Virus record (IMG/VR): IMGVR_UViG_3300035698_008781
Coordinates: 14,806-78,805 of that record
DNA length: 64,000 nucleotides
Origin: a virus
Reading direction: 5' to 3' (one strand)
A program made the position numbers and the translations under genes. This document shows, in pieces, positions 4,924 through 10,244 of the stretch (its first letter is position 1; the number at the start of each line of letters is the position of its first letter). The notes below the pieces were generated by a model. It did no database searches and had not been told where the DNA came from. It saw nothing but the letters and a program-made list of their open reading frames with translations.

Positions 4924-5164
4924 GTATTGAAGGAAAATAACAATCTTTTAGTTAACTAGAGATAACTTCAAAGGTTAACTATAATAAATTAAACTAACAA
5001 ACAATTGCTACACTGTTGTCCTATGAAATAATTAGGTTAACGAAGAAAGAGTAAACATAAAACAGTCAATTGTAATTATTAACTAACAAATTAAATTAAT
5101 CAAATACATAGAAGAATGGATAGTATTGCTGAAGTAGTGAATAACTATTAAACTTAAAAAAAAC

Positions 5165-5359
5165 ATGGGAAAGACTATATTACACACTGAAAAAGCGAAG
5201 TATAATCGAGGAGATAAAACGTCTCAAAGCCTAGAGAATTATTTTAACAGGTCTAATAACAACTTAGGAAGATATAGATCTTTAAAAAAGATAAAAATGG
5301 AAAAAATCATATCAAAAGACTTAGACATACAGCTAAGAGAGATATTAAAAGAAACATAA
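5165..5359 (+). CDS. hypothetical protein
   Basis: 64-aa ORF. Confidence 0.5.
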   Translation: MGKTILHTEKAKYNRGDKTSQSLENYFNRSNNNLGRYRSLKKIKMEKIISKDLDIQLREILKET

Positions 5360-5380
5360 TATGAAAAAACTTATAAAATT

Positions 5381-5566
5381 ATGAAAACAATAGTAACTTG
5401 GCTACACAGTATATTAACTTTCTTTAGTTTTTTTATACTACTATCATTTTTAAGCAATTCTAATACAACAAAAGACCAAGTTTTAATTGCCTTGAGTATT
5501 TATAATTATTGTCTTGTTATTGCAATAGTATTAATTAACTCTACAATAAAAGATGAAAACAAATAA
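5381..5566 (+). CDS. small membrane protein
   Basis: Two hydrophobic segments. Confidence 0.5.
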   Translation: MKTIVTWLHSILTFFSFFILLSFLSNSNTTKDQVLIALSIYNYCLVIAIVLINSTIKDENK

Positions 5567-5840
5567 AGATAACTACTTTGAAGTAGAATACAATGGACAA
5601 AGAGGATTTGTTCTTGTTAGTGATGAAGAAATTAAAAATGATGTAACTTGTTTATATCATAATAGGTTTGGGAGTTTAATTATTTGTACTTCTAAAAAGA
5701 CAAAAAACGGTTTTGTATACCAAGAAGAAAATGAAACTTATGGACATCCTGATGGGGGAATAACTCCTTTAAAAAATGAAATATCAAAAATCATAGGTTC
5801 TACATTTGAATTAGAAGGTGTTCCTTTAATTGTTTTGTAA
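5553..5840 (+). CDS. hypothetical protein
   Basis: 95-aa ORF. Confidence 0.6.
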   Translation: MKTNKDNYFEVEYNGQRGFVLVSDEEIKNDVTCLYHNRFGSLIICTSKKTKNGFVYQEENETYGHPDGGITPLKNEISKIIGSTFELEGVPLIVL

Positions 5841-5958
5841 AATGAATCAAAATCATTCAAACAATCATAAATTACTTACAAATATACTACTTATTGTAGC
5901 ATTAATATGTATAGTATTAACAATAATTAACTAATATTAACAATTAAATTACAAAAAG

Positions 5959-7623
5959 ATGTTTAACAGCAAACAAAAACAATTATTTAGCAAAAATAAA
6001 AAAACACAAATATCTGGTAATGTATTTATAACAGAAGCTACTAAATCTACATCAGTAACAAGAAGTGAAAACGGTGCTAAAAAATATACTACAACAGGTA
6101 GTGAATTTGTGGATCAATTTAGTAATTTAGGTAACTATAAAACACCTAGATCATTCGCAGATATATCAAGAGATATGTCGACATTATGGGCTATTAATCC
6201 TTTTATGACAGTTGCATTTACATTATTCATTAGAATAATCACTAGAACAACTATGTTATTTACAGGAAAAAAAACTGAAACTACTCAAAGAGGTGCTGGA
6301 TTAAGGTATGAAGGTATAATGAGAATGATGTGGTTACATATATATCATAAAGATATATTTTGGAATAACATTCATCTATTTATATCAGCAGGTTCTTGGA
6401 AAGATATTATTATGATGTTATCATATGATTTACAATATAATGGTTGGGATAAACGACAATTAGATTGGAATCAATTTGGTAAATTAATATTATCTGGATT
6501 AGAAAATCCAAATCATTCTGAATTGATTAAAAAGTATTTACCTCAAATTAAATCAAATAATAAATGTAATACATTAGAAGCTCAAGCTGATAATATAATT
6601 GCTAAATGGATTTGTTCATTATTATTTGGTGAAAAAGATAATGCAAATACTTATAAAAAATATAGAATGTTAAAATCTAAAGGTACAGCTCACCAATGGC
6701 AACAATTAATATCACAAAGTAAACACAACCTTGTTGATTTTAATACAGTACATGGTAGAGCATTATCATTATTAGTATCTGGTAAGTATTTAACTAATCA
6801 AGGCTTAGAATCTAAATATCAAGAATTTATTGAATCTAAACCAATTGCTAAATATACAGGATATGTACATGAATTATTTGAAAAAATAACTCATTCAATG
6901 CCTAAATATCAAATAGATACTTTAAACTCACAATTTAAAGGTTTAGTAGAAACCGCTAAAACAAATGCTACTACAACTACAGGAATGATAGTTGTAAGAG
7001 ATACTTCAGCTAGCATGAGTTCTTTAGCAATAGGTACTAAAACGTCTTGTGGTAATGTAGCAAAAGCATTAGCATTATTCTTTAATGAAATGTTACCTGA
7101 TGGTGTATTTAGTAATAATTGGATAGAATTTAATTCAACTGCTAAAATGTATCAATGGAATGGTTCAACACCTTATGAAAAATGGGTAAATGATAGATCA
7201 AGTTATATTGGGGATACAAACTTTCAATCTGTAATAGATTTATTATGTTCTATTAAGTCTAAAGATATTGATGAATCAGAATTTCCATCAGGTATTATTT
7301 GCATTAGTGATATGGAATTCAATCCATCATCATTAAATCAAACAAATGTTTCAAGTGCTTTAGATAAATTAAGAGGGGTTGGTTTTTCAGACCAATATAT
7401 TAATAATTTTAAAATAGTACTATGGGATTTAGGAAGAAAAAATAAACAAACTAAGTTTGAAACATATGATAATGTTAAAAATACATTCTATTTTAGTGGA
7501 TTTGATGGTTCAATAATGGCATTCTTAACAGGTGTTGAAGGTGCTGAAATGACTCCTCAAAATGCTCAAGAATTATTTAATGCTTCAATGGATCAAGAAT
7601 TAATGCAAATGATTCAATTATGA
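5959..7623 (+). CDS. DUF2828-type TROVE/Ro60-like protein with C-terminal VWA domain
   Basis: Helical N-terminal region (RGAGLR, GSWKD, IAKW) plus VWA MIDAS VVRDTSASM, GDTNF, IICISDMEFN, FSGFD. Confidence 0.75.
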   Translation: MFNSKQKQLFSKNKKTQISGNVFITEATKSTSVTRSENGAKKYTTTGSEFVDQFSNLGNYKTPRSFADISRDMSTLWAINPFMTVAFTLFIRIITRTTMLFTGKKTETTQRGAGLRYEGIMRMMWLHIYHKDIFWNNIHLFISAGSWKDIIMMLSYDLQYNGWDKRQLDWNQFGKLILSGLENPNHSELIKKYLPQIKSNNKCNTLEAQADNIIAKWICSLLFGEKDNANTYKKYRMLKSKGTAHQWQQLISQSKHNLVDFNTVHGRALSLLVSGKYLTNQGLESKYQEFIESKPIAKYTGYVHELFEKITHSMPKYQIDTLNSQFKGLVETAKTNATTTTGMIVVRDTSASMSSLAIGTKTSCGNVAKALALFFNEMLPDGVFSNNWIEFNSTAKMYQWNGSTPYEKWVNDRSSYIGDTNFQSVIDLLCSIKSKDIDESEFPSGIICISDMEFNPSSLNQTNVSSALDKLRGVGFSDQYINNFKIVLWDLGRKNKQTKFETYDNVKNTFYFSGFDGSIMAFLTGVEGAEMTPQNAQELFNASMDQELMQMIQL

Positions 7624-7627
7624 TATA

Positions 7628-8226
7628 AGGTGTAGAATCTGCAAATCATACACAAACAAATATGATAAGCAACAAGCACTACTAAGTATAATAAAAATAA
7701 TAATAATTTTAAACTTTAACACTACACCTGTTAAATTCAAAGTTTAATTGTAAAAGTTATAATAAAAATACAATTAGTAGTGCTTTTAATAAGAATACTA
7801 ACAGCAATTTATAAAGATCAATTTTTTAACTTGAAACCTTATATGTATTCTGATAAAATGATTAATAGCACTCTTACGGTGAAATTGGTAAACACAGGTG
7901 TCTAAAAAAATAATCATTTAATAAATAGTCTAACAGCAATTTTAATAGCTTTTCATGCCGTAAACAGTAGTTCGATTCTGCTAAGACATATAGATATGTC
8001 TTTCGTCTAGAGGCTAGGACAACGTAAAAAATAGACTATTGATAAGAAGTGTAACAGCAAATTTAAACTTTTTTAAAAATAAAAAAACAAATACACTTCT
8101 AATAAGATTAGCAACAGCAAAATAACAAACATCAAATTTTTACTTTGACCAGTTATGCTAATCTGATAAAGTCACTAACAGCAACTCAAACAATTTTTAT
8201 AGGAAAAAAGAAAAAAATAGTGACTT
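7628..8226 (+). ncRNA. tandem array of seven stem-loop RNA units with AACAGCAA motif (Y-RNA-like)
   Basis: Stems 7628-35/7722-29, 7792-98/7845-51, 7856-64/7911-19, 7924-32/8032-40, 8045-53/8092-8100, 8105-13/8156-64, 8169-77/8218-26. Each 5' strand leads into AACAGCAA (five exact copies, two variants). Confidence 0.85.
7949..8024 (+). ncRNA. circularly permuted tRNA-Glu-like domain (YrlA-like) inside an array unit
   Basis: Order: TTC anticodon-like loop, T arm AGTAG-TTCGATT-CTGCT, closed acceptor stem AAGACATA/TATGTCTT, D arm GTCTAGAGGCTAGGAC. Confidence 0.8.
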
Positions 8227-8259
8227 GAGTAAAATATTAACTAACTAATAATAATTATT

Positions 8260-8574
8260 ATGAAAACAATAAAATGTTTTAAAAAAAAAGGTTATAAAAA
8301 ACAACCTACTATTAATGAAATAATTAAATCATTAGAGGAACAAAAAATATATGATCAACTAAGATTAGTTCAACAAACTGAACTTGGTAGAATAAAGTAT
8401 ATATTATCACAAGGTCGTACATTATGTCTAGTACATGTAGCTTATTTAAGAGATTTATATTGGAGCTTTATATCTAATAATTTTAGATTTGAAGATAAGA
8501 TACAAAAAAAAGAAAAAGAAAAAAGAGATAATATTCATCCTGGAATGAAGTTATTTTTATCATTATCGCAATAG
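8260..8574 (+). CDS. hypothetical protein
   Basis: 104-aa ORF. Confidence 0.6.
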   Translation: MKTIKCFKKKGYKKQPTINEIIKSLEEQKIYDQLRLVQQTELGRIKYILSQGRTLCLVHVAYLRDLYWSFISNNFRFEDKIQKKEKEKRDNIHPGMKLFLSLSQ

Positions 8575-8763
8575 TATAATGTAGGTAAATATAAGCCAAC
8601 AAAAGCAAAAGCTTGGGAAGAAAAATAGAATAATAAGTTTTGGTTCTATTTATATTTATAACAACTTTATAGAGAGGTTAAATTATCTCTTGTAGTGATA
8701 GTAGATATGGGTGATTATATGGCGACAGTCACCCATACTATTATTAATTTTTAAAAACAAAAC

Positions 8764-9163
8764 GGGGCAGACTGGTTTTGACAGGTGATTAATAGCAATA
8801 ATAATCAGTGAGAGAGATAACTCTAAACTAAGGTGAATTTAATTAAACGGAAAAGATAATGATCAAATCGTAGCAAATATGAATGTAGTATATAACATCT
8901 TAAATGGTGGTACTGAAGTATCAAAAGATTTAAATACTATTATGGTAGAAGAAGATTTATTGATGGCAGCATAATATTGCCCAAAGCTAGTTGAGGTAAT
9001 ACTAGTAAATTTATTTAAGATTTCTTCATTAGATTAAATGAAGTGGTGGAAGTTAACCTACTGGTTGACCCTTTCTAACGTAAAGAGTTTAAAGAAACGT
9101 GAAACTGTATAAATTATTATTGTAAACATTGCATGGACGAGGGTTCGAGTCCCTCCTGCTCCA
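8764..9163 (+). ncRNA. ssrA: tmRNA
   Basis: 5' GGGGCAGACTGGTTTTGACAGG; 3' T arm GAGGG-TTCGAGT-CCCTC then CTGCTCCA, giving an acceptor stem with the G3-U70 Ala determinant. Internal tag ORF 8849-8974 ends LLMAA*. CCA not encoded. Confidence 0.95.
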
Positions 9164-9180
9164 CAACTAATTCTTAAATT

Positions 9181-9390
9181 ATGAATATTATAGAAATTAA
9201 AGTAGTAACTATTAGTGAAGATCCTGGTAATCCAGGTTTCATTAAAACACAAACTGTTGGTCGACTTGACAAAAGAGTCAATAGACAACAAGATTTTGTG
9301 AGATGGTATTTAGAAATTCATTCTCAACATGGTAATGTTAATTATGAAGTTTTAGATAAGCTAGAAATAGCTAAAGATAGGGTCTTATAG
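9181..9390 (+). CDS. hypothetical protein
   Basis: 69-aa ORF between tmRNA and tRNA; stop overlaps the tRNA 5' end. Confidence 0.55.
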   Translation: MNIIEIKVVTISEDPGNPGFIKTQTVGRLDKRVNRQQDFVRWYLEIHSQHGNVNYEVLDKLEIAKDRVL

Positions 9391-9452
9391 CTCAGGGGTA
9401 GAGCAGGGTGCTCATAACACTCAGGTCGTAGGTTCAAATCCTTCTAAGACCA
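9381..9452 (+). tRNA. tRNA with CAT anticodon (Ile2-like or Met)
   Basis: Acceptor GGTCTTA/TAAGACC, D arm GCTC/GAGC, anticodon loop CTCATAA, T loop TTCAAAT; CCA not encoded. Confidence 0.9.
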
Positions 9453-9592
9453 CTAATTATTTGATTAATAATTAGTTAGTTAGTTGTAAATGTGAGTGAA
9501 AACTGCGATCATTCCGTGGATGTAGCTCACATTTATTTTAATCATTAATAAAAAACAAAAATTATGGAAGAATTAGTAAAACAAAAACTTAA

Positions 9593-9943
9593 ATGAAAAA
9601 ATTATTCTTAATATTATTATTGTTTATTACAGTAATGATGCATTCTCAAACTTATGAGTTTAAATCAAACCAACAAACATATGTTTCTTTAAAAGATAGT
9701 AAAAATGCTTCTGAAAAAAGAAATGATATAAAATTTATATTTATTACAGATGCTTCTGTAATAAAGTTTGTATTAAATTCAGAAGTTATAGTATTTACTG
9801 TATTAAGTGTTAAAGAAACTAATATTTCTTATATATATAATATAATAAATGAAGATATATTATCACAAATTATAGTGTATAAAAATATTAAACGTATTAC
9901 TTTAAAAGGTGATATAGGTCAACTAAGTTGTCAAATTGAGTAG
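9593..9943 (+). CDS. secreted hypothetical protein
   Basis: Bacteroidetes-style signal peptide MKKLFLILLLF...SQ. Confidence 0.65.
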   Translation: MKKLFLILLLFITVMMHSQTYEFKSNQQTYVSLKDSKNASEKRNDIKFIFITDASVIKFVLNSEVIVFTVLSVKETNISYIYNIINEDILSQIIVYKNIKRITLKGDIGQLSCQIE

Positions 9944-9965
9944 TAACAATAAATAAATAAATAAC

Positions 9966-10244
9966 ATGTCAAATTTTCTTTATCATCAGAAACATGAAAA
10001 GGTTACTGGTCACACAAGACGTAGTTTCGCAGGAAACTATAATCCTGATACTAACACATTAGTGATAGGTATTTCAGGTAATCATCAATCTGATAGCTTT
10101 TGTAAATCAAAAGGTAGACAAATTGCAGTAGGTAAATCTTTAGTTCAAAGAAAGAACTTACAAGATGCTGGTAAACAACGAATTATTAACAATGTAACTA
10201 AAGAAACTGCTAGAGAAGTTTTCTTTAATGAAATTAAAGATTAA
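9966..10244 (+). CDS. hypothetical phage protein
   Basis: 92 aa, DSFCKSKGRQIA motif. Confidence 0.65.
   Translation: MSNFLYHQKHEKVTGHTRRSFAGNYNPDTNTLVIGISGNHQSDSFCKSKGRQIAVGKSLVQRKNLQDAGKQRIINNVTKETAREVFFNEIKD

What the first reader, a model, noticed from the sequence alone, without database searches (positions are those of the whole stretch)
5957..6015. An eighth copy of the array hairpin overlaps the protein's own start codon
Seen: AGATGTTT (5957-5964, containing the ATG) is followed by AACAGCAA (5965-5972). It can pair with AAATATCT (6008-6015, one G-U). Its loop end AAAAATAAAAAAACACAAATA is nearly identical to that of the 8045-8100 unit. Inference: a translational operator, where free protein binds its own mRNA and is titrated by the array RNAs. 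That would be internal evidence that the protein recognises the motif.
Basis: partly seen in the sequence, partly recalled or inferred. Interest (0 to 1): 0.78.

Follow-up and report, generated by a model that had tools for sequence, protein, structure and literature searches.

The report
Partner-RNA handle on Ro60-like gene's start
A phage gene for a Ro60-shaped RNA-binding protein carries, across its own start codon, a cargo-free copy of the stem-plus-ACAGCAA "handle" of the small RNAs encoded just downstream; about half of the related genes keep it by selection on the RNA, so it is probably a feedback switch on the protein's synthesis, though binding has not been shown.

Summary
AGATGTTT (5957-5964, holding ATG 5959-5961) pairs with AAATATCT (6008-6015; 8 bp, one G-U), and AACAGCAA follows the 5' arm directly, as in the seven array units at 7629-8226. 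A covariance model built only from array units of other genomes scores 5954-6021 at 37 bits (E 1e-5). It is the only hit outside the array above noise in the 64 kb.

Among 76 distinct homologous gene starts, 41 keep the same hairpin. The evidence for selection on the RNA:
- The non-coding AG before the ATG always co-occurs with the downstream CATCT arm.
- The motif is held by rare codons: AGC in 29 of 31 cases, 1.5 expected.
- It sits in two reading frames (AAC AGC and ACA GCA).

The coded residues 1-19 are disordered in the model. The protein folds like Ro60 (TROVE ring plus vWA). The element looks ancestral, with at least 9 losses.

The most likely function is an autogenous translational operator that mimics the protein's RNA ligand (confidence about 0.5). 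Binding, repression and titration by the array are untested. This scan met the same arrangement before, in at least six other genomes. I found no published description.

The parts
5957..5964 (+). 5' arm of the hairpin, AGATGTTT. The start codon ATG is at 5959-5961. A5957 and G5958 are non-coding.
   Evidence: AG before the ATG co-occurs with the 3' arm in 41/41 relatives that have AG
5965..5972 (+). Handle motif AACAGCAA (core ACAGCAA 5966-5972), coding Asn3-Ser4-Lys5 with the rare codons AAC and AGC.
   Evidence: elsewhere in the gene AAC is 5/38 Asn codons and AGC 1/45 Ser codons
5973..6007 (+). A-rich, cargo-free loop. Its 3' part AAAAATAAAAAAACA is identical to the loop end of unit 8045-8100. 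It codes part of the disordered N-terminal tail.
6008..6016 (+). 3' arm AAATATCT plus the conserved following G (unit end CTG).
   Evidence: relatives: CATCTG in 39, CGTCTG in 1, TATCTG here; all pair with AGATG
5959..7623 (+). Gene for a 554-aa Ro60-like protein (DUF7788/DUF2828, phrog_850 'RNA-binding protein'), a TROVE-like helical ring plus vWA domain.
7629..8226 (+). Array of seven handle RNAs (AAG-stem-ACAGCAA-loop or tRNA-like cargo-stem-CTG), the presumed primary ligands that the start-codon copy mimics.
   Evidence: stem covariation in 94 units of relatives

Best explanation
The stretch 5957-6016 is a cargo-free copy of the 'handle' that closes the phage's Y-RNA-like small RNAs. The handle is AAG, a 7-9 bp stem joining the two ends, single-stranded ACAGCAA directly 3' of the 5' arm, an A-rich loop, the 3' arm, then CUG. 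Here it is written into the first 19 codons of the Ro60-like gene, so that the AUG lies inside the 5' arm.

Shown: the element is real, belongs to the same RNA family as the array units, and is kept by selection on the RNA in about half of the related genes.

Inferred: the Ro60-like protein recognises the handle. When free protein exceeds free array RNA, it binds this weak hairpin on its own mRNA, stabilises it and blocks 30S access to the AUG. These genes have no Shine-Dalgarno sequence, so initiation should depend on an open start region. Array RNAs compete for the protein and relieve the block, which would match protein output to RNA supply.
For: - Same family as the array: R1, built from array units of other genomes only, gives 37.1 bits, E 1.2e-5. 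It is the only non-array hit above noise in 64 kb. Weaker hits lie inside long ORFs.
- Conservation: 41/76 distinct homologous starts have AG-ATG-TT paired with [CT][AG]TCT-G 27-63 nt downstream, and 29 have exact ACAGCAA. At least 12 such copies score 35-52 bits with R1 under default filters.
- RNA-level selection, non-coding bases: the non-coding AG at -2/-1 occurs with the 3' arm in 41/41, against 4/35 without AG.
- RNA-level selection, codon choice: Asn3 is AAC in 21/23 (4.7 expected) and Ser4 is AGC in 29/31 (1.5 expected). Hairpin-less genes have AGC in 0/5.
- RNA-level selection, reading frame: one RNA motif codes three peptides in two frames, AAC AGC (NS), GAC AGC (DS) and ACA GCA (TA; L023, L030, L045, three separate tree positions).
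- RNA-level selection, pairing: the variants that change a stem base are wobble-compatible (TATCT here, CGTCT in L034).
- The coded tail is free to serve the RNA: residues 1-19 have pLDDT below 50 in a model of mean pLDDT 89.6, and loop length varies in steps of three.
- The protein is a plausible binder: full-length Foldseek hits to Ro60 with RNA (1yvp) and to phage phiLo Ro60 (9kop, 9l5y), E 2e-6 to 3e-4. phiLo Ro60 binds Y-like RNAs encoded beside its gene (PMC12135203).
- The handle-protein pairing holds down to 23% identity, in Felix O1, Listeria and Bacillus phages.
- Suited to a switch: the hairpin alone is weak (-1.5 kcal/mol). SD-like sequences occur upstream of 0/39 hairpin-bearing and 6/33 hairpin-less genes.
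- Other registers near the start exist: L038 has the ATG in the loop of a unit, and eight loci have a full unit ending 19-36 nt upstream.
Against: - No binding or expression data of any kind exist, and no RNA run holds the stretch.
- In 12 of 41 copies the stem is kept but the motif has decayed, for example AAGCAA and AAAGTAA. This fits a role for AUG pairing alone at least as well as protein recognition.
- The element was lost at least 9 times. It is absent from Leptolyngbya phage Lbo-JY46, which keeps a five-unit array, and from distant homologues with arrays. So the system runs without it.
- In loci whose arrays use a variant motif (TCAGCAA in L065 and L073), the start copy does not follow the variant.
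- M1, F2, K5 and L9 are conserved in hairpin-less homologues too, so part of the 5' arm is fixed by the peptide.
- The eight 'leader' units may simply be the last units of upstream arrays.
Confidence: 0.5

Rival explanations
1. Decay or processing entry site. The handle on the mRNA is recognised by the machinery that releases or uses array units: a nuclease cutting at the AAG/CUG borders, or a Ro-type RNP that hands RNA to an exoribonuclease, as in the Ro60-Y RNA-PNPase complex. The mRNA would then be cleaved or degraded rather than blocked at initiation.
For: - The copy keeps the unit borders: AAG before the stem in all 41 copies and CTG after it. These match the inter-unit junction CTGATAAG.
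- phiLo Ro60 with its Y-like RNAs forms complexes with host PNPase (PMC12135203).
Against: - The 3' junction ATAAG is replaced by coding sequence.
- No processing enzyme or cleavage site is known for these arrays.
- No 5'/3'-end data exist.
Confidence: 0.17
2. Protein-independent attenuator. The stem pairs the AUG and simply keeps translation of this gene low or condition-dependent (temperature, ions). Its likeness to array units is only a legacy of its origin from a unit.
For: - The stem outlasts the motif in 12 of 41 copies.
- These genes have no SD, so any pairing at the AUG should lower initiation.
Against: - The hairpin is very weak by itself (-1.5 kcal/mol, z 0.07, 43-nt loop).
- Strong codon-level selection holds ACAGCAA, which is unpaired and unnecessary for a plain stem.
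- The A-rich loop end and the CTG border are also kept.
Confidence: 0.15
3. Dual-use RNA. The first 60 nt of the transcript are themselves an eighth small RNA, released or prematurely terminated, that joins the RNP pool. The open reading frame merely starts inside it.
For: - It is a complete unit by the covariance model.
- It most resembles the cargo-free unit 8045-8100.
Against: - No terminator or processing signal follows the CTG.
- It would destroy the mRNA each time.
- No expression data exist.
Confidence: 0.1
4. Chance resemblance, or conservation of the N-terminal peptide MFNSKQ...TS alone.
For: - The sequence is A/T-rich and of low complexity.
- M, F, K and L of the N-terminus are conserved in hairpin-less homologues too.
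- The folding z-score is not significant.
Against: - Non-coding AG covaries with the coding CATCT arm.
- Rare codons are chosen.
- The motif is kept in two frames with three different dipeptides.
- The covariance model gives E 1.2e-5.
- The tail is disordered.
Confidence: 0.03

Closest known systems
Autogenous translational operators that mimic the protein's main RNA ligand: the E. coli thrS operator (tRNA-Thr anticodon-arm mimic), ribosomal-protein operators (L1, S8, S15, L20), the MS2/R17 coat protein-replicase start hairpin, and T4 RegA and gp32 (from established knowledge)
   Same: A copy of the ligand's recognition element lies on the start region of the gene for the presumed binding protein. 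The start codon sits inside the hairpin, as in the MS2 replicase operator. The ligand RNAs would compete with the mRNA.
   Different: - Binding and repression are not shown here.
- Most of the operator lies inside the coding sequence and shapes a disordered N-terminal tail.
- The ligands are an adjacent multi-copy array.
- No such operator has been published for any Ro60-type protein in the papers I could search.
Ro60/Rsr with Y RNAs: bacterial and phage YrlA/YrlB (Chen et al. 2014, PMC4201824) and Thermus phage phiLo Ro60 with Yrl1/Yrl2 (PMC12135203; PDB 9kop, 9l5y)
   Same: - The protein has a ring-plus-vWA fold.
- The small RNAs are encoded next to the gene.
- Their two ends form a closing stem that carries the conserved element.
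- Some carry tRNA-like modules.
   Different: - No TROVE Pfam hit, only DUF7788/DUF2828.
- The handle is stem plus single-stranded ACAGCAA, not the bulged helix or CGAA motif.
- There was no Y-RNA match of any kind in Rfam at E up to 1.
- Units come in head-to-tail arrays.
Class I RNAs of dictyostelid amoebae (Rfam RF01414; Kjellin et al. 2021, PMC7919456)
   Same: - They start with AAG.
- A 6-bp stem joins the ends.
- A conserved motif ending UUACAGCAA lies directly 3' of the 5' arm.
- They are about 60 nt long and end in CUG(U).
- The window's units, including 5958-6016, are the only RF01414 matches in the region.
   Different: - Scores are 26.8-29.9 bits against a gathering score of 41.5.
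- No unit in 20 related loci reaches it.
- Class I RNAs are separate eukaryotic genes with their own promoters.
- Their known direct binder is an RRM protein (Rnp1A).
- Homology versus convergence is open.

Membership tests
Autogenous translational operator by ligand mimicry | Element overlaps the ribosome-binding region or start codon of the regulator's own gene | tested here: met
   ATG 5959-5961 lies inside the 5' arm 5957-5964. It is the only canonical start: a stop lies at 5938-5940, and no other ATG/GTG/TTG precedes the conserved core.
Autogenous translational operator by ligand mimicry | Element resembles the protein's primary RNA ligand | tested here: inconclusive
   It resembles the adjacent array units (R1 37.1 bits; 46/59 identity to unit 8045-8100). 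That these units are the protein's ligands is inferred from gene neighbourhood across phages and from the Ro60-like fold. It has not been measured.
Autogenous translational operator by ligand mimicry | The protein binds the element and thereby lowers its own translation | not testable with these tools
   No RNA-protein docking tool was available, and no RNA or ribosome data exist for this genome.
Handle RNAs of DUF2828-type Ro60-like proteins (uncatalogued family seen in this scan) | AAG, closing stem, ACAGCAA directly 3' of the 5' arm, A-rich loop end, 3' arm, CUG | tested here: met
   All six features are present at 5956-6016. The covariance model of the family scores it E 1.2e-5.
Handle RNAs of DUF2828-type Ro60-like proteins (uncatalogued family seen in this scan) | Closing stem supported by compensatory changes | tested here: inconclusive
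   Array units show strong covariation: 261 double-change cells, with 0/500 shuffles reaching that. The units were picked for having a stem, so that figure is partly circular. In the start-codon copies the arm is pinned by ATG-TT, so only presence/absence covariation (AG with CT, 41/41) and wobble variants are seen.
Ro60/TROVE proteins | HEAT-like helical ring plus C-terminal vWA domain | tested here: met
   The AlphaFold2 model has pLDDT 89.6. Foldseek gives full-length matches to 9kop, 1yvp, 2i91 and 9l5y, at probability 1.0 and E 2e-6 to 3e-4.
Ro60/TROVE proteins | Sequence match to the TROVE family (Pfam PF05731) | tested here: not met
   Pfam gives only DUF7788, and relatives carry DUF2828 plus DUF7788. 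Identity to solved Ro60 chains is 10-14%.
Y RNAs / YrlA (Rfam) | Match to a curated Y-RNA model | tested here: not met
   No Y-RNA family appears at E up to 1 in 5000-10000.
Dictyostelid Class I RNA (RF01414) | Score at or above the curated gathering score (41.5 bits) | tested here: not met
   5958-6016 scores 26.8 bits and the array units 28.0 and 29.9 bits. None of 20 related loci has a hit at gathering level.
Dictyostelid Class I RNA (RF01414) | AAG start, short terminal stem, 11-nt motif next to the 5' arm, about 60 nt, CUGU end (PMC7919456) | tested here: met
   Here: AAG 5956-5958, an 8-bp stem, TTTAACAGCAA against CCUUACAGCAA, 59 nt, and the end CTGG. This is resemblance only, not proof of common descent.

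The most novel reading that the evidence does not exclude
The start-codon copy is internal genetic evidence that DUF2828-type Ro60-like proteins specifically read the 'AAG-stem-ACAGCAA...CUG' handle. That signature is the same as in the abundant, functionally unexplained Class I RNAs of Dictyostelium. It would follow that Class I RNAs are the Y-RNA equivalents of a second, unrecognised Ro-type particle shared by phages, giant viruses and amoebae, whose protein level is set by mRNA mimicry of its own RNA partners.
Probability: 0.2. Interest if true: 0.85.

Novelty: new variant of a known kind. Interest (0 to 1): 0.62.

Why it matters
Autoregulation by ligand mimicry is a classical principle, but I found no published case for any Ro60-type protein in the papers I could search. 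The handle RNAs of the DUF2828 branch are in no RNA catalogue.

A handle kept on the protein's own start codon by silent-site selection, in two reading frames and over deep divergence, is the strongest sequence-only argument that protein and handle interact. It also defines a minimal 59-nt RNA, and precise synonymous mutations, for a first binding and reporter experiment.

Cultured phages carry the same protein-RNA pair: Felix O1, Listeria P100-like phages and Bacillus Tsamsa-like phages. The biochemistry is therefore within reach, with a possible bearing on the unexplained Class I RNAs of social amoebae.

Tried and rejected
- The default-filter covariance search of the window missed the start-codon copy. 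Only the unfiltered search found it.
- Folding energy gives no support. The MFE contains the stem, but z is +0.5 and 0.07.
- No RNA holder is listed for the stretch.
- The sigma-70 and terminator scan is uninformative in this 25% GC DNA: 45 promoter-like sites against 32 expected, and no terminator between the gene and the array.
- Rfam at gathering level finds no Class I match in 20 related loci.
- Test for co-variation between the array motif variant and the start copy (L065, L073): none seen.
- The crude test of whether hairpin-bearing genes more often have arrays was too lax to mean anything, and I discard it.
- To enlarge the ACA-GCA-frame sample I scanned IMG/VR for AGATGTTYACAGCAA. There were more than 120 hits, but none begins an ORF homologous to the window protein and most begin no long ORF, so they look like array units whose stem happens to hold ATG. 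Two further protein-seeded scans gave no new example.
- I could not obtain Avesson et al. 2011, or the sequence of DDB_G0281243, the protein of unknown function pulled down with a Class I RNA. Whether it is DUF2828-like stays open.
- Complex prediction was not used, because it cannot take RNA.

Full report
**1. What is there**

The window is A/T-rich (25% GC) and phage-like. An ORF at 5959-7623 (+) codes a 554-aa protein. Pfam sees only DUF7788, and PHROGs calls it phrog_850 'RNA-binding protein'. Its many relatives carry DUF2828 plus DUF7788.

An AlphaFold2 model built on 96 relatives is confident (mean pLDDT 89.6, pTM 0.89). The exception is residues 1-19, with pLDDT below 50. Foldseek matches the whole chain to Ro60 structures, at E 2e-6 to 3e-4:
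- 9kop and 9l5y, the Ro60 of Thermus phage phiLo;
- 1yvp and 2i91, Xenopus Ro60 with RNA.

So the protein is a Ro60-shaped ring plus vWA domain without TROVE sequence similarity.

Directly after its stop lie seven head-to-tail RNA units (7629-8226). Each has this order: AAG, a 7-9 bp stem joining the two ends, (A)ACAGCAA directly 3' of the 5' arm, a loop or tRNA-like cargo, the 3' arm, then CTG(ATAAG). A tmRNA (8764-9164) and a tRNA-Met (9381-9453) follow.

**2. The observation**

It is exact. AGATGTTT (5957-5964) pairs with AAATATCT (6008-6015), giving 8 bp with one G-U. AACAGCAA follows at 5965-5972, and G 6016 completes the CTG end.

AACAGCAA occurs 8 times on the + strand and never on the - strand, against about 1 expected. 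Five copies are in the array, and this is the only other copy with the unit geometry.

The copy is most like the cargo-free unit 8045-8100, at 46/59 identity. The two share a 15-mer that occurs nowhere else in the window.

For an objective test I built a covariance model (R1) from 94 array units taken only from other genomes. Their closing stem shows heavy covariation, though the units were selected for having a stem.
- Unfiltered, R1 scores 5954-6021 at 37.1 bits, E 1.2e-5.
- The best hit that is not a handle unit scores 16.2 bits.
- The weak hits I checked lie inside long ORFs.
- With default filters the copy was missed.

Rfam's Dictyostelium Class I model, below its threshold, picks out two array units and this copy and nothing else.

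ATG 5959 is the only possible canonical start. A stop lies at 5938-5940, and no alternative start precedes the conserved core.

**3. Relatives**

I collected 6 loci from phage and IMG/VR collections and 80 from metagenomes through a protein alignment. This sampling took no account of the hairpin. Among 76 distinct 5' ends:
- 41 have AG directly before the ATG.
- All 41 have a matching 3' arm 27-63 nt downstream: CATCT in 39, and the wobble-compatible CGTCT and TATCT in one each. G follows in every case.
- 29 have exact ACAGCAA next to the 5' arm.
- Among the 35 without AG, none has the motif and 4 have CATCTG.

At least 12 of these copies score 35-52 bits with R1, even in a 384-kb default-filter search.

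**4. Selection acts on the RNA, not the peptide**

- The AG at -2/-1 is non-coding, yet it goes with the coding CT of the 3' arm.
- Codon choice is extreme:
  - Asn3 is AAC in 21/23 cases (4.7 expected from the rest of each gene).
  - Ser4 is AGC in 29/31 (1.5 expected).
  - Hairpin-less genes with Ser4 never use AGC.
  - In the window gene itself AAC is 5/38 and AGC 1/45 elsewhere.
- The same RNA motif is written as AAC AGC (Asn-Ser), GAC AGC (Asp-Ser) and, shifted by one base, ACA GCA (Thr-Ala). The shifted form occurs in L023, L030 and L045, which sit in three different parts of the protein tree.
- The coded tail is disordered and varies in length.

A caveat: M1, F2, K5 and L9 are conserved in hairpin-less homologues too. 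ATG-TT is therefore fixed by the peptide, and classical compensatory changes cannot be expected in the core of the arm.

**5. History and distribution**

I built a tree of 72 proteins with the tail left out. It is a quick IQ-TREE with SH-aLRT support and a midpoint root. Hairpin-bearing genes lie on both sides of the root. At least 9-10 state changes are forced by well-supported branches. The simplest reading is an old element lost many times.

- Twelve copies keep the stem while the motif has decayed.
- Leptolyngbya phage Lbo-JY46 (49% identity) has a five-unit array but no start-codon handle.
- Distant DUF2828 genes of Felix O1, a Listeria Pecentumvirus and a Bacillus Tsamsavirus have handle units beside them. 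They have ordinary Shine-Dalgarno sequences, short N-termini and no start-codon hairpin.
- SD-like sequences precede 0/39 hairpin-bearing and 6/33 hairpin-less genes.
- Several relatives show TAnnTTTG boxes upstream, the Bacteroidota promoter type (identified from established knowledge).

Other registers occur. In L038 a unit encloses the ATG in its loop. In eight 'hairpin-less' loci a complete unit ends 19-36 nt upstream of the ATG. Those eight may just be the last units of upstream arrays.

**6. Mechanism**

Shown: a handle-family RNA element on the start codon, under RNA-level selection.

Inferred: the Ro60-like protein binds handles. The grounds are the fold, the gene neighbourhood across very different phages, and the precedent of phiLo Ro60 binding adjacent Y-like RNAs (PMC12135203).

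The hairpin alone is weak, at -1.5 kcal/mol (-3.4 to -10.9 in relatives), against -5.8 to -9.9 for array units. That suits a switch that closes only when a protein clamps it. With no SD, an open AUG region should be needed for initiation.

I therefore favour an autogenous translational operator that mimics the ligand, with array RNAs as competitors (0.5). The rivals are:
- a decay or processing entry site (0.17);
- a protein-independent attenuator (0.15), favoured by stems outliving motifs;
- a released eighth small RNA (0.10);
- chance or peptide conservation (0.03).

No computation available here can tell the first four apart.

**7. Comparison with what is known**

Functionally the closest are the classical mimicry operators: thrS, the ribosomal-protein operators, the MS2 coat-replicase hairpin and T4 RegA. 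Only the positional criterion is fully met here. The likeness to the array units is measured, but that they are the protein's ligands is inferred, and binding and repression are untested.

The RNP resembles Ro60 with Y RNAs, but it fails the sequence criteria for both the TROVE and the Y-RNA families.

The handle shares five features with dictyostelid Class I RNAs: the AAG start, a short terminal stem, a motif ending UUACAGCAA next to the 5' arm, a length of about 60 nt and a CUG(U) end (PMC7919456). It stays below the Rfam threshold. That paper reports no Class I RNAs outside Dictyostelia. One pull-down partner, DDB_G0281243, has unknown function, and I could not examine it.

**8. Standing**

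I found no paper on DUF2828 function, nor any on a Ro-type autoregulatory operator. This scan itself has already met the handle-RNA and DUF2828 system in many genomes. It has met a handle on or next to the gene's start in at least six other genomes. The present case agrees with those notes.

What this case adds:
- the unbiased count (41/76);
- the non-coding/coding covariation;
- the codon statistics;
- the two-frame evidence;
- the loss history;
- the link to SD-less initiation.

**Verdict.** It is a new variant of a known kind of regulation, in an uncatalogued RNP family.

Noticed in passing
window 7629-8226; L001 5658-6018; L002-L086: Head-to-tail arrays of handle RNAs lie beside almost every homologous gene. 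Their loops often hold anticodon-arm-like hairpins or split or permuted tRNA-like bodies (for example 7924-8040). The unit junction CTGATAAG is strongly conserved and looks like a processing site.
   Followed up: partly
L087 4368-5060 (Salmonella phage FO1a/Felix O1), L088 2333-2600 (Listeria Pecentumvirus), L089 2478-2938 (Bacillus Tsamsavirus): The covariance model of the handle finds units (E 2e-6 to 4e-3) next to DUF2828 genes that are only 23-26% identical, in cultured, well-studied phages. These offer laboratory systems for the RNP.
   Followed up: partly
window 5958-6016, 7793-7852, 8170-8227: These are sub-threshold matches to Rfam RF01414, the Dictyostelium Class I RNAs. The shared features are the AAG start, terminal stem, UUACAGCAA motif, ~60 nt length and CUG(U) end. 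The published view is that Class I RNAs exist only in Dictyostelia.
   Followed up: partly
window 8764-9164; L008 5422-5781; L051 4665-5004: A phage tmRNA follows the handle array here and in at least two related loci. ARAGORN reads a 22-residue tag ending in AA in the window.
   Followed up: no
L051 714-854: A Hatchet ribozyme match above the gathering score (56.4 bits) lies upstream of a related Ro60-like gene.
   Followed up: no
window 5843-5935: A 30-codon ORF with a hydrophobic core (MNQNHSNNHK LLTNILLIVALICIVLTIIN) ends about 20 nt before the hairpin. The motif TTAACAATTAAA between it and the hairpin recurs upstream of many hairpin-bearing relatives.
   Followed up: partly
L046, L071, L031, L034, L068, L050 (about 40-50 nt upstream of the ATG): TAnnTTTG boxes, the Bacteroidota -7 promoter type, precede several related genes. 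Hairpin-bearing genes lack Shine-Dalgarno sequences. This suggests Bacteroidota-like hosts for much of the clade.
   Followed up: no
L050 2501-2570; protein P0013: In-frame tandem duplications occur inside the loop of the start-codon hairpin (a repeated GGCAAAAGAAA... stretch, and KQTQLLGS twice). The loop-coded tail tolerates expansion while the arms stay paired.
   Followed up: no
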